DNA of 64,000 nt from Paenibacillus sp. (GTDB lineage: Bacteria; Bacillota; Bacilli; Paenibacillales; Paenibacillaceae), in assembly GCA_039595515.1 (NCBI GenBank), contig JBCNLJ010000010.1, forward strand, positions 18,197 through 82,196, written 5' to 3'. How positions within the stretch are numbered: position 1 is the stretch's first letter; every line of letters starts with the position of its first letter. Both the position numbers and the translations under genes were made by a program. Of this stretch, positions 33,207-38,051 are shown one piece after another. The notes below the pieces were generated by a model. That model made no database searches and was not told where the DNA came from. It worked only from the letters and a program-made list of their open reading frames with translations.

Positions 33207-33662
33207 ATGGACCAACAAAAAACACAATTCGTATATGGCTTGATCGCAGGCGCACTGATCGGTGCTGGAGCGGCGGCTTTATTCACACCGAAAAGCGGAC
33301 GCGATATGCGTTCTGATCTGCTGTATGGAGCAGAAATGATTCGCGAGAAAGGTCCAGAATGGAATGAGAAAGGCCATGAAGTGACCGAAAAGGGTCGCGA
33401 GGTGGTAGCGGTTGTTAAAGAATCAATTGGTGTAGCGCGCGAATGGAAAGAGCAAGTCGAAGCCGCAGCCGAAGATGTAAAGCACGAGCTGGCTGAATTC
33501 AAAGAGCAGCAGGATGCGGAAAAGCAAAATGATACAGATAAATCCAGCGATGCAACAGGTAGTGCTGCAAAAGAAACATCATCAACTCCTGCTGCAAATT
33601 CAACCAAAACGCCGACAACTCCGCCAGCAGGCAAAGATAAAACGAGTAATTACAGCGTATAA
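33207..33662 (+). CDS. YtxH-domain (gas-vesicle-like) protein
   Basis: GLIAGALIGAGAAALFTPKSGRDMR. Confidence 0.88.
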   Translation: MDQQKTQFVYGLIAGALIGAGAAALFTPKSGRDMRSDLLYGAEMIREKGPEWNEKGHEVTEKGREVVAVVKESIGVAREWKEQVEAAAEDVKHELAEFKEQQDAEKQNDTDKSSDATGSAAKETSSTPAANSTKTPTTPPAGKDKTSNYSV

Positions 33663-33686
33663 CGATTAGAAATATAGATCTATCCG

Positions 33687-33734
33687 AAGCCCGATTGTAC
33701 GGAGAATCCTCCATACGATCGGGCTTTTATTTTT
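33687..33734 (+). terminator. Terminator after ytxH
   Basis: AAGCCCGATTGTA / TACGATCGGGCTTTTATTTTT. Confidence 0.8.
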
Positions 33735-33982
33735 GTACATGCCTATTCATTTTTTAACGTGCTGCTTAAGCAATATCTCATAGACAATAGTTCGCAAAAT
33801 GAATAACTTTATGAGTGACAAAAATATAAATTTAAGTAATATAATTACTTATTTTAGGTTATTATATTCTTAACTAATTTTCCATAATATTATTAAAGAG
33901 TATGTAATTGCACAAATCGAAATGCCCCTTTCTTCTGACTTCTCGTGAATGCATCTGTACGTGAAAGGAGGTGAATATTCCA

Positions 33983-35512
33983 ATGAACTATCGATTACCT
34001 GTGTCATTTGTTTTGTTATTTCTCGGTGTGTGGTTTTATCATCCTGTTATGCATGCAGCCGAAATTGAAATCGCTTCAGAAAAGGGCATTTCATTCCAAA
34101 GCGCATCAAGCAGTAGCGAGGCTTCCAGCAGTAATGAAGCTTCTGCTAGCAGCAATACAACAGAGGCAAGCCATACTTCGCAGTCTGATGCTGGACTGGT
34201 ACAGCGCACAGCGGCTTCGTTAACTGGAACGCTGTCAAATACGGCGAAGTCTGTAACGGATACTGCGCAAAAAGCAACCTCTAATGTGGTCTCTCAGACG
34301 ACAGGCACTGTAGACAATACGACGAAGGTCGTAACGGAAGCAGTCGGTAACACAGCGGGGATTGTGAATAATGCGAGCGATCTGACTCAAAACGTGATCA
34401 CTGAAACAGAGAAGGTCGTGTCTGGCAAGCCAGCAGATATTACCGGAGCTGTATCCTCAGGAGTCACGAATACGGTCAACGATACCGCGAACACAGCGAC
34501 ATCCGCTGTATCCGGTACAGTATCTACAACGACAGAAGCAGTAGGCGAAACGGTAAAGACGGTCGATCAGACGGTGAAGGCGGTAACGGAAACGACCGGT
34601 GAAGCTGTAACTGAAGTGCTAGACACAACAGAAACAGTGGTTGACACCCTACCTGTAATTGTAAAGGAGACGGTAAATCAAGTACCGATTGTGTCGACTC
34701 CTGTTACAGTTCCACCTGTGGTAACTATACCACCTGTTGTGACAGTACCACCGATCTCGACTACTCCTGATCCTGTAACCGGGCAGACCCCTGTCTCCGA
34801 GTCGACTCCTGGTCGTGAGCAGCAGCCAGCCGGACGTGATCAGGATACAGGGACAGCAGTACAGTCACCTGTAGCCGAGCGACCATCTGGCGTAAGTGCT
34901 TCATCGCCGATTAAGAATACGGTGTCTGCGGATCAACCAATTCAGTCTCCGATAGCGAGCATTCCGCAGCCAACGGAGCCGCTGGTTCGACCTGATGAAG
35001 TACCATTTTCAGGCAGTGCGGATGCTTCGGTTCAAGCGGTCTCCAATGTGGAGCAGCCAGCTACGGAGGTCGGTGATGTGAAGCCTGAAGCTACAGATAC
35101 GAATGCGGAGGCACCGAACGGTGCTAATGCAGCAGGCTTGGCGGTTTCTAATTCTACGCTTCCAGCCGGATCAGCGCAGCAGACGCTTCAAGCGGTATCA
35201 GGACAGACTTCAGATCAGGGTATTGGCGGACAAGCTCCGTTTGCTCCATCTGGCTTGCCATTAACGCAAGGCTGGAATGGTGATCTGATCGGTGTAATCA
35301 CGGCAGGTTCTGCCTCGTCTGGAGGTCAGCTCAACTGGTCAGGCGGTAATGCTGGCGGTACAGCACCAACGGCTATGCTATTGGATACGGTAGAAGCTTC
35401 ATTACTGGAACAGCCTGTTTGGATGTACAGTGCAAGGTCTCAGCGTGGAAGTAGTCAATGGATGAATGCACCACCTGGTCAACCGCCGCAATCGGCTCCC
35501 TATTTTAATTGA
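33983..35512 (+). CDS. Secreted S/T/V/P-rich protein with C-terminal WMNAPPGQPP motif; candidate ribosome-arrest monitoring peptide
   Basis: AAGGAGGTG RBS 9 nt before ATG 33983; signal peptide ending MHA|AE; low-complexity body; C-terminus SQWMNAPPGQPPQSAPYFN. Confidence 0.8.
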   Translation: MNYRLPVSFVLLFLGVWFYHPVMHAAEIEIASEKGISFQSASSSSEASSSNEASASSNTTEASHTSQSDAGLVQRTAASLTGTLSNTAKSVTDTAQKATSNVVSQTTGTVDNTTKVVTEAVGNTAGIVNNASDLTQNVITETEKVVSGKPADITGAVSSGVTNTVNDTANTATSAVSGTVSTTTEAVGETVKTVDQTVKAVTETTGEAVTEVLDTTETVVDTLPVIVKETVNQVPIVSTPVTVPPVVTIPPVVTVPPISTTPDPVTGQTPVSESTPGREQQPAGRDQDTGTAVQSPVAERPSGVSASSPIKNTVSADQPIQSPIASIPQPTEPLVRPDEVPFSGSADASVQAVSNVEQPATEVGDVKPEATDTNAEAPNGANAAGLAVSNSTLPAGSAQQTLQAVSGQTSDQGIGGQAPFAPSGLPLTQGWNGDLIGVITAGSASSGGQLNWSGGNAGGTAPTAMLLDTVEASLLEQPVWMYSARSQRGSSQWMNAPPGQPPQSAPYFN

Positions 35513-35543
35513 CATTTGTCTTATTAAAATAAAAGGGAGCGAT
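35491..35543 (+). promoter_or_regulatory. Hairpin sequestering the Shine-Dalgarno of the downstream LPXTG gene
   Basis: GCTCCCT (35495-35501) pairs with AGGGAGC (35534-35540), and ATTTTAAT (35502-35509) pairs with ATTAAAAT (35523-35530). No U tract follows. Confidence 0.75.
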
Positions 35544-35548
35544 TAACA

Positions 35549-37681
35549 ATGAAATGGTCAGTGAAAATGATGGTAGCAACAGGTTGTCTGGCAGCAACGA
35601 TGGCATGGTCGCATGGAACGGCGCAAGCAGCAGCGGATAGCAACGCTTTGCTTACACTCGATCTCGGCAAGCAGGAGAGCGAAGGGAGCGTGCATGTAGG
35701 TGTGCTTGAGAGCAATCATACTACAGGTACGGAAACGGAGCAGACAGCAGATTCTTTGCTGAATGTGCAAGCGACAGATACGCTCCTGGGAGATGGAGTA
35801 CAAGCTGAAGTATTGACTTCATCAGATAACAATACGTCGACCAGTGAAGCAAGCCATAATGCAGTTGTCGACATTAGCGGCACCGATACAATCGTTGGCG
35901 ATGATGTGAACATCGGTGTGCTGGATAGCCACGAGCAATCGAATCAAAACACTGACGGTTCTCATTCAGCAGTAGTTGAAGTGGGAGCTACGGATACCGT
36001 TTTGGGTGATGATGTGCATGTAAGTGTACTGGACAATCATGAGCAGTCTAGTAGCACAGCAAGCACAGACAGTCAAGCTGTGGTGGAAGTAGGAGCTACA
36101 GATACCATTGTAGGCGATGATGTGCATGTAGGTGTACTGGACAATCATGAGCAGTCTGGTGGCGTAGCAAGCACAGACAGTCAAGCTGTGGTGGAAGTAG
36201 GAGCTACAGATACCATTGTAGGCGATGATGTGCATGTAGGTGTACTGGACAATCATGAGCAGTCTGGTGGCGTAGCAAGCACAGACAGTCAAGCTGTGGT
36301 GGAAGTAGGAGCTACAGATACCATTGTAGGCGATGATGTGCATGTGGGTGTACTGGACAATCATGAGCAGTCTGGTAGTGCAGCAAGCACAGATAGTCAA
36401 GCTGTGGTAGAAGTAGGCGCTACGGATACTATTCTGGGCGATGATGTGCATGTAGGTGTACTGGACAATCATGAGCAGTCTGGTGGCGCAGCAAGCACAG
36501 ATAGCCAGGCTGTGGTAGAAGTAGGAGCTACAGATACCATTGTAGGCGACGATGTGCACGTAGGTGTACTGGACAATCATGAGCAATCCACTGGAACGAC
36601 AAATACTGATCATGAAGCAGTCATCGAAGTAAGCACAGGTAACACTCCTGTAGTTGACGATGTGCATATTGGTGTGTTGGACAACAACCAGCAAACGACG
36701 CCAACGGGTACCAGTCAGCAACAGGCTGGCGTAACATTAGGTGTGGATGATGTGCTTGGGAGTAACCTTGATCTGGCTGTGCTTGAGAATAATAGTGGGC
36801 AAAACAATCAAGGAACCGGTAATCAGTCTTCCCTGATTTCAGTTGGGCTAACGGACAGCATTTTACCAGCTATTGATTTGATTGTACTTGGCAATCAAAC
36901 CTTCGTACCCGCACCTGGTGGCGGTGATAACGGTTCTGGCGGTGGAACGACCCCGACTGAACCAACACAGCCAGGTAATGGCGGCGGAAATAATGGTGGT
37001 AACAATGGTGGTAACACAGGCGGCACGGATCCTGATGATAACGGGAATACTGGCGGTAATGGCAACACAGGTAATAACGGCAATACAGGAAATAATGGCA
37101 ACAACGGTGGTAACACTGGTGGAGGCGGAACTACCGGCGGCAACACAGGTGGCGACAATTCTCCTGGTAATACGACCACTGGCGGTAACAATACGGGTGG
37201 TTCTGGCGGTACAGGTTCGGTTTCTACCAGTACAGAGGGCACGAATACGAATGCTACAGTCGGTTCCGAGATGAGTGCTTCCACTGGCGGAGCAGCAGGA
37301 ACGGATAGTGTAATCTCTGCAGCTTCCACAGGTGACCCGGTCAGTGCAACAGAAACAGCAACAAACGGAAATGCAACACAGCCGTCCAATCCGGTAAATG
37401 CAGCCGGCTTTAACGGCATAACTGCATCTGCAGAGCTGCTGCCAGTTTCAGGCGAACCAGCATCTATCGTTACCGCTGCAAGTACAGGTATGGTAGCTGC
37501 AAGTGAAGCGAACGAGCAGTCCGCAGATCACCAGGCGATGAATGGTAACGGTGTGATGGGTATGAACCAACTGCCGCAAACGGGAGAAACGACTCCATTT
37601 GCTGTATATGCACTGGGTAGCCTGCTCATTTTGCTTGGATTGGCTTTGCGTAATCGTAGTCAATGGAAAGCCTTGAACTAA
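35549..37681 (+). CDS. Sortase-anchored (LPQTG) surface protein with 36-aa tandem repeats and G/N-rich stalk
   Basis: Signal peptide (TAQA|AA); repeats ASTDSQAVVEVGATDTIVGDDVHVGVLDNHEQSGGV; LPQTG at 37571-37585 followed by a TM segment and basic tail. Confidence 0.9.
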   Translation: MKWSVKMMVATGCLAATMAWSHGTAQAAADSNALLTLDLGKQESEGSVHVGVLESNHTTGTETEQTADSLLNVQATDTLLGDGVQAEVLTSSDNNTSTSEASHNAVVDISGTDTIVGDDVNIGVLDSHEQSNQNTDGSHSAVVEVGATDTVLGDDVHVSVLDNHEQSSSTASTDSQAVVEVGATDTIVGDDVHVGVLDNHEQSGGVASTDSQAVVEVGATDTIVGDDVHVGVLDNHEQSGGVASTDSQAVVEVGATDTIVGDDVHVGVLDNHEQSGSAASTDSQAVVEVGATDTILGDDVHVGVLDNHEQSGGAASTDSQAVVEVGATDTIVGDDVHVGVLDNHEQSTGTTNTDHEAVIEVSTGNTPVVDDVHIGVLDNNQQTTPTGTSQQQAGVTLGVDDVLGSNLDLAVLENNSGQNNQGTGNQSSLISVGLTDSILPAIDLIVLGNQTFVPAPGGGDNGSGGGTTPTEPTQPGNGGGNNGGNNGGNTGGTDPDDNGNTGGNGNTGNNGNTGNNGNNGGNTGGGGTTGGNTGGDNSPGNTTTGGNNTGGSGGTGSVSTSTEGTNTNATVGSEMSASTGGAAGTDSVISAASTGDPVSATETATNGNATQPSNPVNAAGFNGITASAELLPVSGEPASIVTAASTGMVAASEANEQSADHQAMNGNGVMGMNQLPQTGETTPFAVYALGSLLILLGLALRNRSQWKALN
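35630..36890 (+). repeat. 108-bp coding tandem repeat (about 12 units, 5 near-identical)
   Basis: AAGCACAGA anchors at 36061, 36169, 36277, 36385 and 36493 (period 108); diverged units on both sides. Confidence 0.95.
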
Positions 37682-38051
37682 AGTTAGAAACTAGTATTCT
37701 GGCATAGCAATGAACAAGCGTAACACCAGCAACATTGTACTGTTCCGAGTTGTATGGCACCATCATGCAACTACCGATGATAGCAGCATGCATCGACAGA
37801 GAAGTACAAACGTTTTGCATAGAAGTATGAAGCTAGTATGAAGCTCCTGACGAGGAGCATTATACTGCATAGAGCCGCCTTTGCTTGTCAGAGGCGACTC
37901 TATTTTTTTGCGCATTATGCCTTATTTCCTGAAACTTTTTGTGACTCAAACGTATTATATACAGTACGCACCATGTGCGTGCATATGCCTATCGATTCAA
38001 CTGCGCCCTGATCGCAGCTACGGCGCCATAATGATGAAGGAGAGATGCAAC

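What the first reader, a model, noticed from the sequence alone, without database searches (positions are those of the whole stretch)
33983..35551. Candidate secretion-monitoring ribosome-arrest peptide (W-M-N-A-P-P) coupled to an SD-sequestering hairpin controlling a cell-wall protein
Seen: (i) a Sec signal peptide, a long low-complexity spacer and the C-terminus SQWMNAPPGQPPQSAPYFN (NAPP codons 35465-35476, QPP 35480-35488); (ii) immediately 3', the last codons (35491-35509) pair over 15 bp with 35523-35543, burying the SD AAAGGGAG of the next gene (ATG 35549); (iii) no U tract follows, so this is not a terminator. Established: SecM, MifM, VemP and the RAPP-motif peptides ApdA/ApdP/ApcA use this layout of localisation signal, C-terminal arrest motif and SD-occluding stem; translocation force releases the stall, and their targets are Sec/YidC components. 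Inference: a NAPP-variant arrest system whose target is an LPXTG surface protein, so surface-protein synthesis would be coupled to secretion capacity or envelope state. That would be a new use of monitoring substrates.
Basis: partly seen in the sequence, partly recalled or inferred. Interest (0 to 1): 0.9.

Follow-up and report, generated by a model that had tools for sequence, protein, structure and literature searches.

The report
Candidate ribosome-pausing peptide gating surface-protein translation
A secreted Paenibacillus protein ends in a strictly conserved proline-rich peptide placed just before an RNA hairpin that hides the ribosome-binding site of the next gene, a layout conserved across Bacillales that looks like an undescribed stalling switch but has not been tested experimentally.

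Summary
ORF1 (33983-35512) has a signal peptide, a low-complexity body and the tail QWMNAPPGQPPQSAPYFN. Its last codons form a hairpin of about -21 kcal/mol (35490-35544) that buries the SD of ORF2 (ATG 35549; LPQTG protein). RNA contigs read through the hairpin.

The layout is a family trait. About 30 loci from Paenibacillus, Rossellomorea and metagenomes share three features:
- the peptide Q-W-x-[N/H]-[A/P]-P-P-x-Q-P-P-[Q/K], conserved at amino-acid level with free synonymous change;
- an anti-SD (CUCC) 3-11 nt after it, whereas the stop codon lies 15-57 nt after it;
- an SD hairpin with compensatory pair changes.

Modelling shows that a ribosome at NAP|P leaves the SD buried. The SD opens only when the P site reaches the second diproline (QPP).

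The best reading is a nascent-peptide pause or arrest that unmasks the ORF2 SD. Secretion force is the likely modulator, but that is inferred only.

- LPXTG is not universal in the targets.
- ApdA, ApdP and ApcA have no predicted SD hairpins.
- Arrest peptides upstream of non-Sec genes are already published (CutF, CruR, the Streptomyces RAPP peptides).

No stalling has been shown. This is a new variant of a known kind.

The parts
33983..35512 (+). ORF1: 509-aa secreted, acidic, low-complexity protein carrying the C-terminal conserved peptide
   Evidence: No Pfam or NCBIfam family. Homologues in Paenibacillus spp., Rossellomorea and metagenomes.
33983..34057 (+). Predicted Sec signal peptide (residues 1-25; cleavage after MHA, AHA or ASA in homologues)
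   Evidence: Read from the sequence. No signal-peptide predictor was available.
35456..35491 (+). Conserved 12-residue peptide QWMNAPPGQPPQ. First diproline NAPP is at 35465-35476, second diproline QPP at 35480-35488.
   Evidence: Invariant Q, W, PP, Q, PP in proteins that are otherwise 18-40% identical. Every degenerate codon varies synonymously.
35490..35544 (+). SD-sequestering hairpin: 5' arm 35490-35509 (the last ORF1 codons), loop 35510-35522 (contains the TGA stop), 3' arm 35523-35544
   Evidence: Conserved with compensatory changes.
35495..35500 (+). Anti-SD GCUCCC, encoded as Ala-Pro here and as Ser-Leu, Ser-Pro or Ser-Ser in relatives
   Evidence: CUCC lies +3 to +11 nt after the QPPQ codon in all 23 distinct junctions. 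The peptide differs while the RNA is kept.
35532..35540 (+). Shine-Dalgarno AAAGGGAGC of ORF2, fully paired in the free mRNA
35549..37681 (+). ORF2: 710-aa secreted acidic repeat protein, predicted all-beta, with a G/N-rich linker and an LPQTG anchor
   Evidence: TIGR01167 18.3 bits against a cut-off of 15.9. AF2 model is all-beta, pLDDT 72.9, with no significant PDB match.
35549..35599 (+). First 17 codons of ORF2, nucleotide-invariant in the Paenibacillus clade (unexplained)
   Evidence: 11 of 12 degenerate codons are identical, against about 20% background.
35978..36684 (+). 108-nt (36-aa) tandem repeats of ORF2
37571..37585 (+). LPQTG sortase motif, followed by a hydrophobic segment and a basic tail
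37876..37905 (+). Terminator-like stem followed by a T run: the probable 3' end of the ORF1-ORF2 operon
   Evidence: RNA contigs end at 37760-37822.

Best explanation
ORF1 and ORF2 form a bicistronic cassette. Translation of ORF2 is blocked by a hairpin in which the last ORF1 codons (anti-SD CUCC) pair with the ORF2 SD.

The conserved ORF1 peptide Q-W-x-[N/H]-[A/P]-P-P-x-Q-P-P-[Q/K] acts in cis, inside the exit tunnel and at the peptidyl-transferase centre, to slow or arrest the ribosome at the diprolines. When the P site is on the second diproline (QPP, 35483-35488), the anti-SD lies in the ribosome's mRNA entry channel (+11 to +14). The SD is then freed for as long as the pause lasts, and 30S subunits can start ORF2.

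ORF1 is itself an exported protein. The most likely modulator of the pause is therefore the pulling force of its own Sec-dependent export or extracellular engagement, as for SecM, VemP and CutF. EF-P may be a second input.

Shown here: the anatomy, co-transcription, amino-acid-level versus RNA-level constraint, the fixed motif-to-anti-SD spacing, and compensatory pairing.
Inferred: that the peptide pauses ribosomes at all, which diproline is the stall site, and what releases the pause.
For: 1. The motif is the only strongly conserved stretch in proteins that are 18-40% identical. The set includes members found by profile searches that did not force the motif: P0006, P0008 and P0011-P0014, and a paralogue ending in NPPP.
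2. All degenerate motif codons vary synonymously, so selection acts on the peptide. Directly after the motif, the peptide varies (SAP, HSL, FSP, SSL, ASS) while CUCC is kept.
3. The anti-SD starts +3 to +11 nt after QPPQ in all 23 distinct junctions and in the paralogue. By contrast, the stop codon lies 15-57 nt and the SD 34-51 nt after it. Loops lengthen (L031) rather than the anti-SD moving.
4. The stop codon is dispensable in position. The window's TGA is a derived CGA>TGA change, and the old tail is still readable in frame after it.
5. In the ribosome-masking model of 7 diverse loci, the SD is 0% unpaired in free mRNA and with the P site at [N/H]AP, and starts to open at the first or second Pro of QPP in five loci and at the following Gln codon in L013 and L031.
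6. Compensatory pair changes flank the SD. Upper stems are entirely different in L009, L011, L012 and L031.
7. ORF1 and ORF2 lie on one transcript.
8. Natural variation at the motif (H or N at position 4; A or P at position 5) overlaps published tolerances. HAPP and QAPP stall (PMC10987492). Ala-to-Pro/Gly keeps arrest in ApdP, and N-A-P is a stalling core in the NAP-stop peptides (PMC12992588, PMC10987492).
9. AF2 gives no fold for the C-terminal 93 aa (pLDDT 42.7). This is weak evidence because the alignment is shallow.
Against: - No experiment and no ribosome-profiling data exist for any member.
- In ApdA, ApdP and ApcA the Arg of RAPP cannot be replaced, not even by Asn (PMC12992588, section 7).
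- Most proteins that contain RAPP-like motifs do not stall (PMC10987492).
- Ordinary diprolines are relieved by EF-P, and ORF1 tolerates three other PP sites (residues 244, 250, 256).
- ORF1 is far longer (290-520 aa) than known arrest peptides and probably has a function of its own.
- Any ribosome finishing ORF1 melts the hairpin, so coupling does not strictly need a pause.
- Seventeen of the family loci were found with a DNA pattern that forced the motif, so their motif invariance is by construction.
- The masking model assumes a fixed ribosome footprint.
Confidence: 0.55

Rival explanations
1. Plain translational coupling. The hairpin makes ORF2 translation depend on ORF1 translation, because any elongating or terminating ribosome melts it. 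The conserved peptide is instead a short functional motif of the mature secreted protein, for example a docking site for ORF2, a sortase or the cell wall.
For: With the P site anywhere from Q503 to the stop codon, the SD is already 30-85% open in the model. SD sequestration is not rare in this window. ORF1 is long and has other conserved patches such as PFAPSGLPL. ORF1 and ORF2 always co-occur.
Against: This does not explain why the anti-SD is tied to the motif (+3 to +11 nt) rather than to the stop codon (15-57 nt). It also does not explain why the conserved residues are exactly two diprolines in a RAPP-like context, or why the C-terminal tail shows no predicted fold.
Confidence: 0.25
2. RAPP-type arrest at [N/H]AP|P acting as a gate. 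While the ribosome is arrested at the first diproline the hairpin stays closed and ORF2 is off. Only when export of ORF1 pulls the chain and releases the arrest does the ribosome run on, open the hairpin and license ORF2. Surface-protein synthesis would then require working secretion.
For: [N/H]APP matches the X-A-P-P layout of the RQH family (PMC10987492). At this position the SD is predicted fully paired in 7 of 7 loci. The logic (do not make a secreted partner when export is blocked) is physiologically sensible.
Against: It gives no role to the equally invariant QPPQ or to its fixed spacing from the anti-SD. Asn in place of Arg abolished arrest in ApdA, ApdP and ApcA (PMC12992588).
Confidence: 0.1
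3. The conserved hairpin and its neighbouring nucleotides are mainly an RNA stability or processing element, or a binding site for an RNA-binding protein or sRNA, that sets the ORF1:ORF2 ratio. The peptide is unrelated to it.
For: Nucleotide invariance extends 50 nt into ORF2 in the Paenibacillus clade. Contig depth differs between the ORF1 and ORF2 parts, although this is a poor measure of expression.
Against: RNA contigs cross the hairpin without a break. There is no Rfam match. In other lineages the ORF2 5' sequence is not conserved while the motif plus anti-SD/SD layout is.
Confidence: 0.05

Closest known systems
SecM-secA, MifM-yidC2 and VemP-secDF2 monitoring substrates
   Same: An N-terminal export or insertion signal, a conserved C-terminal peptide, and an SD-sequestering stem whose 5' arm lies just 3' of the stall codon so that the stalled ribosome unmasks the downstream SD (PMC7897499, introduction). 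With the P site at QPP, the anti-SD sits at about +11 to +14, comparable to my own reading of secM, where the 5' arm lies about +7 to +15 from the Gly165 codon.
   Different: The downstream gene is not a Sec or YidC component. ORF1 is 290-520 aa rather than 95-170 aa and probably has its own function. The motif is unrelated in sequence apart from a Trp about 9 residues upstream and a proline-containing core. Stalling has not been shown.
CutF-CutO of Rhodobacter capsulatus, and CutF-like/CruR proteins (PMC9973294)
   Same: An exported protein with a Sec signal peptide, a C-terminal proline-rich stalling-like motif, and a stem-loop that shields the RBS of a downstream gene for an exported, non-Sec protein. 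This is the closest working analogue.
   Different: CutF is a small DUF2946 protein with a Cys/His metal-binding motif, found in Pseudomonadota and Bacteroidota. ORF1 has no DUF2946 match and no Cys, belongs to Bacillales, and has no known ligand.
RAPP-like arrest peptides: ApdA, ApdP, ApcA and the RQH family (R/Q/H-A-P-P) (PMC7897499, PMC10987492, PMC10951233, PMC12992588)
   Same: An X-A-P-P core near the C-terminus of a protein with a localisation signal. H at X occurs in several lineages here and is a published stalling variant. The A-to-P variant (NPPP paralogue) matches the tolerated A132P change in ApdP.
   Different: X is Asn in the window, which is not a described variant, and Arg was irreplaceable in three tested peptides. 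A second invariant diproline follows 4 codons later. The gene is not upstream of sec or yidC. ApcA, ApdA and ApdP have no predicted SD hairpin. RAPP/RGPP uORFs were reported as absent from Bacillota (PMC12992588, section 13).
uDF_NAP-stop and uA_NSP-stop peptides of Bacteroidota (PMC10987492)
   Same: An N-A-P tripeptide at the P-site end, with Asn (-3) and Pro (-1) needed for stalling.
   Different: Those peptides stall at the stop codon. Here N-A-P is followed by Pro and 14-28 more codons. The phylum and the downstream genes also differ.

Membership tests
RAPP-like / RQH arrest peptides | Conserved C-terminal X-A/G-P-P with X = R, Q or H | tested here: inconclusive
   The window has N-A-P-P. 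Relatives have H-A-P-P (L011, L012, L020, L031, P0014), N-A-P-P or N-P-P-P. H is a family-defining residue; N is not described.
RAPP-like / RQH arrest peptides | N-terminal signal peptide or transmembrane segment | tested here: met
   A hydrophobic N-terminus with an AXA-type site in all members, read from the sequences.
RAPP-like / RQH arrest peptides | Short uORF (<300 aa) directly upstream of secA, secDF or yidC | tested here: not met
   ORF1 is 509 aa. The downstream gene is an acidic repeat or LPXTG protein.
RAPP-like / RQH arrest peptides | Demonstrated ribosome stalling with Pro-tRNA in the A site | not testable with these tools
   Needs in vitro translation, toeprinting or Ribo-seq. 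Only assembled RNA contigs were available.
Monitoring substrates (SecM/MifM/VemP class) | SD of the downstream gene sequestered in a stem that a ribosome at the stall site disrupts | tested here: met
   Met for a stall at QPP (model; hairpins). Not met for a stall at NAP|P.
Monitoring substrates (SecM/MifM/VemP class) | Downstream gene encodes the localisation machinery that acts on the monitoring substrate (feedback loop) | tested here: not met
   ORF2 is a secreted repeat protein. A sortase follows it in L012 only.
Monitoring substrates (SecM/MifM/VemP class) | Arrest released by translocation or insertion force | not testable with these tools
   Requires signal-peptide deletion, SecA inhibition or force-profile experiments.
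CutF-like (DUF2946) exported sensors | DUF2946 domain with a Cys/His metal-binding motif | tested here: not met
   No Pfam hit. Zero Cys and 3 His in ORF1.
CutF-like (DUF2946) exported sensors | Sec signal, C-terminal proline-rich motif and a stem-loop over the downstream RBS | tested here: met
LPXTG sortase substrates (ORF2) | C-terminal LPXTG, a hydrophobic segment and a basic tail | tested here: met
   LPQTGE at residues 675-680, and TIGR01167 above its cut-off. Not met in the DQWLNAPPS branch of ORF2 homologues.

The most novel reading that the evidence does not exclude
This could be a Bacillales-wide, undescribed class of nascent-chain regulator: a dual-diproline arrest module (QWx[N/H]APPxQPPQ) built into the C-terminus of a large, functional secreted protein. 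Its stall would be tuned by that protein's own export or extracellular engagement. While it lasts, it would unmask the SD of the partner beta-rich surface protein, possibly also holding the mRNA at the translocon. The two envelope proteins would then be made in a fixed ratio, at the same place, and only in step with secretion.
Probability: 0.35. Interest if true: 0.85.

Novelty: new variant of a known kind. Interest (0 to 1): 0.7.

Why it matters
Published arrest peptides in Bacillota are few (MifM, YwcI, CliM and a Lachnospirales HAPP peptide). RAPP/RGPP uORFs were reported as absent from Bacillota (PMC12992588).

If it stalls, this family would add several things:
- a new stalling sequence (Asn or His in place of Arg, plus a second diproline) for structural work on the peptidyl-transferase centre;
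- a case where the sensor is a full-size secreted protein rather than a throw-away leader;
- a link between translation arrest and cell-surface protein production in Gram-positive bacteria.

The conserved anatomy makes the hypothesis directly testable with standard reporter, toeprint and Ribo-seq experiments.

Tried and rejected
- A protein search with the C-terminal 93 aa alone found nothing, probably because the query offers too few index words.
- Pfam, NCBIfam and Rfam gave no family for ORF1, ORF2 or the RNA.
- AF2 of the C-terminal 93 aa gave no confident fold.
- Foldseek of the ORF2 model gave no significant PDB match. The best hit was a curli CsgA at E = 0.2 and TM 0.14, which I do not use.
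- I looked for an alternative RNA structure to explain the nucleotide-invariant start of ORF2. Neither RNAalifold nor constrained folds gave a convincing one, and there is no covariation because the region is invariant.
- I considered an internal promoter in the hairpin. TTGACA at 35509-35514 has no -10 box at a proper spacing and is not conserved (TCGACA or TGGACA in relatives). Rejected.
- I considered ORF2 as a lipoprotein because of ATGC. The hydrophobic region before the Cys is too short, a type-I site AQA|A follows, and Cys is Gly in other lineages. Rejected.
- A terminator reading of the hairpin is rejected.
- RNA runs exist only as assembled contigs, so pause sites or 3' ends could not be read.
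- Literature searches for the motif strings and for arrest peptides together with LPXTG or sortase found nothing relevant.


Full report
**1. What is in the window.**
- ORF1 (33983-35512, 509 aa) starts with a typical Sec signal peptide, MNYRLPVSFVLLFLGVWFYHPVMHA|A.
- It continues as an acidic (pI 4.2), Cys-free, T/S/V/A/P-rich sequence and ends ...RGSSQWMNAPPGQPPQSAPYFN*.
- ORF2 begins 36 nt after the stop (ATG 35549, 710 aa). It has a signal peptide, 36-aa tandem repeats (108-nt period, 35978-36684), a G/N-rich linker and an LPQTGE anchor (TIGR01167 above its cut-off).
- Neither protein matches a Pfam or NCBIfam family, and the RNA matches no Rfam family.

**2. The hairpin.**
- The last ORF1 codons (35490-35509) pair with 35523-44. 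The anti-SD GCUCCC (35495-35500) pairs with GGGAGC of the SD.
- The junction folds at -21.1 kcal/mol (z = -5.1), and the SD is predicted 0% unpaired.
- No U tract follows the stem.
- Transcript contigs from three RNA runs of a roughly 98% identical strain cover 33970-36037 in one piece. ORF1 and ORF2 are therefore co-transcribed and the stem is not a terminator.
- A terminator-like site follows ORF2 at 37876-37905.
- As a control, 4 of 37 SD-bearing genes in this window also have a fully paired SD in the same crude model. The hairpin in one sequence alone would not be remarkable.

**3. Close relatives.**
- Homologues were found by protein search, by their genomic loci and by a genome scan. They are Paenibacillus wenxiniae, P. 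hunanensis, P. campi, P. kandeliae, Paenibacillus spp. WLX1005 and WLX2291, and a MAG. All are syntenic.
- At 38-76% overall identity, the stretch RGSSQWMNAPPxQPPQ..YFN is invariant.
- The DNA shows two different kinds of constraint. Across the motif, synonymous sites change freely, which points to selection on the peptide. From TATTTTAAT through the SD and the first 17 codons of ORF2, the nucleotides are almost invariant: 11 of 12 degenerate codons are identical, against about 20% background.
- In the WLX1005/kandeliae branch the tail peptide changes from SAPYFN to H/R-SLYFN while CUCCC is retained in another codon phase.
- The stop codon is not fixed. It falls after YFN in the window, P. campi and L014, where a derived CGA>TGA change leaves the old tail 'HLSY*' readable behind it. 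Elsewhere it lies five codons later, inside the 3' arm.

**4. The wider family.**
- A profile of the C-terminal 93 aa searched against 1.8 billion representative proteins returned distant members that keep the motif: P0006, P0008 (QWTHAPPGQPPQ) and P0011 (QWLNAPPSQPPQ).
- A profile of ten full-length members added Rossellomorea aquimaris, P0013 (QWVNAPPSQPPQ) and P0014 (QWSHAPPGQPPK).
- A degenerate DNA pattern scanned over metagenome contigs gave 20 stretches. Seventeen have the same gene layout and three are chance P/Q-rich proteins. For these 17, motif invariance is by construction.
- WLX1005 and WLX2291 carry a second, paralogous cassette whose ORF1 ends QWINPPPGQPPQ..., with its own hairpin (-23.3 kcal/mol, z = -4.2).
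- The consensus is Q-W-x-[N/H]-[A/P]-P-P-x-Q-P-P-[Q/K].
- Every degenerate codon in the motif is used in two to four synonymous forms.

**5. Linked RNA anatomy.**
- In all 23 distinct junctions, the MFE structure pairs GGAG of the ORF2 SD with nucleotides +3 to +11 after the QPPQ codon (mostly +5 to +8). Folding z-scores range from -3.3 to -7.4.
- By contrast, the stop codon lies 15-57 nt and the SD 34-51 nt after the motif.
- Where the tail is long (L031, L018), the loop lengthens or the stop moves past the SD, but the anti-SD stays beside the motif.
- The arms differ completely between lineages:

| Lineage | 5' arm | 3' arm |
|---|---|---|
| Window clade | GCUCCC..UAUUUUAAU | AUUAAAAUA..GGGAGC |
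| L011 (upper stem only) | UUUUAUUU, GAAA loop | AAAUAAAA |
| L012 | UUUUCUCCUUUUUU | AAAAAAGGAGAGGAAA |
| L009 | CUCUUUUUUUA-C-UAUAAGU | ACUUAUA-C-UAAAAGGAGAG |
| L031 | CCUCCUUCUC | GAGAAGGAG |

- In an ungapped register anchored on GGAG, the flanking pairs covary. Position -1 is C:G in 12 junctions, U:A in 11 and U:G in 1 (24 of 24 paired). Position +4 is G:C in 11 and U:A in 7.
- This is selection on pairing, not on sequence.

**6. Which codon would matter.**
- I modelled a ribosome as forcing nucleotides -12 to +11 (or +14) around the first P-site nucleotide to be single-stranded, and recomputed SD accessibility at every codon in seven diverse loci.
- The SD stays fully paired in free mRNA and with the P site on [N/H]-A-P, the RAPP-type stall position.
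- It begins to open when the P site reaches the first or second Pro of QPP, or the following Gln in L013 and L031.
- The arithmetic agrees. From the Pro497 codon (35471) the stem base (35490) is at +20. From the Pro502 codon (35486) the anti-SD is at +10 to +15.
- A 30S subunit on the ORF2 start would not clash with a ribosome parked there.
- If a pause actuates the switch, it is therefore at the second diproline. The upstream QWx[N/H]APP would then lie 4-10 residues up the tunnel.
- This step is inference from a simple model.

**7. Literature.**
- Arg of RAPP is irreplaceable in ApcA, ApdA and ApdP. Ala can be Gly, or Pro in ApdP. RAPP arrest resists EF-P. RAPP/RGPP peptides occur upstream of diverse non-Sec genes but were reported as absent from Bacillota (PMC12992588, sections 7, 9 and 13).
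- Natural HAPP and QAPP peptides (the RQH family) and N-A-P-stop peptides stall. Most proteins that merely contain such motifs do not (PMC10987492).
- CutF-CutO is an exported sensor with a C-terminal proline-rich motif and a stem-loop over the RBS of a non-Sec exported protein (PMC9973294). It is the closest working analogue.
- No paper in the library contains the motif strings or links arrest peptides with LPXTG proteins.

**8. The target.**
- ORF2 homologues form one family of acidic, repeat-rich secreted proteins.
- LPXTG (LPQTGE, LPKTGG, LPKTGE) is present in the Paenibacillus-like branches. In L012 a sortase gene follows directly.
- LPXTG is absent in the DQWLNAPPS branch and in the WLX1005 paralogue.
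- A single-sequence AF2 model of ORF2 residues 28-450 is all-beta with long hairpins (pLDDT 72.9, pTM 0.76). It has no significant PDB neighbour.
- The function of ORF1 and ORF2 outside the cell remains unknown.

**9. Verdict.**
A cis-acting C-terminal peptide coupled to an SD-sequestering hairpin is strongly supported by comparative evidence.
- Four points are not established or are wrong in detail: that the peptide is a 'NAPP variant of RAPP', that it monitors secretion, that the target is defined by LPXTG, and that this use is unprecedented.
- My preferred mechanism is a peptide-dependent pause at the second diproline that unmasks the ORF2 SD, modulated by ORF1 export. I give it 0.55. Plain coupling plus a protein-level motif gets 0.25.
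- I class the finding as a new variant of a known kind, and it is worth an experiment.

Noticed in passing
window 35549-35599: The first 17 codons of ORF2 (MKWSVKMMVATGCLAA...) are nucleotide-invariant across Paenibacillus species whose ORF1 and ORF2 are only 40-55% identical (11 of 12 degenerate codons identical). No convincing RNA structure or partner was found. The invariance is absent in other lineages of the family.
   Followed up: partly
L001 4646-7566 (also L008 around 3891): A second, paralogous ORF1-ORF2 cassette lies directly upstream of the orthologous one in Paenibacillus sp. WLX1005 and WLX2291. Its ORF1 ends QWINPPPGQPPQIAPDFNTSFVG* (Ala replaced by Pro), it has its own SD hairpin, and its ORF2 has no LPXTG.
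   Followed up: yes
window 35510-35527: The TGA stop of ORF1 is a derived CGA>TGA change. The ancestral five-codon tail and its TAA are still readable in frame behind it. The same holds in P. campi (L007) and L014. TGA followed by C is a leaky context, so some read-through is conceivable.
   Followed up: partly
L012 3241-3840 (minus strand): A sortase gene (PF04203, E = 9e-28) lies immediately downstream of the ORF2 homologue (LPKTGG) in one metagenomic lineage. No sortase is adjacent in the window.
   Followed up: no
window 26895 (+), 47972 (+), 16531 (-): Three other genes in the window have an SD predicted to be fully base-paired in a crude -100/+60 nt fold. They were not examined further.
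   Followed up: no
window 34712-34752 (ORF1 residues 244-257): ORF1 carries three further diprolines in a short repeat (VPPVVTIPPVVTVPP), partly conserved in the clade. Diproline as such is therefore tolerated inside the ORF.
   Followed up: no
window 35630-36900 (ORF2 residues 28-450): The single-sequence AF2 model is an all-beta array of long hairpins built from the 36-aa repeats (pLDDT 72.9). The only hints in the PDB are non-significant beta-solenoid or curli-like matches.
   Followed up: partly
window 33600-37900: One plant-metagenome run holds 98% of the sampled words of window 34900-36100. Three RNA runs of a roughly 98% identical strain show the operon is expressed, with transcript contigs starting between 33890 and 33970.
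   Followed up: partly
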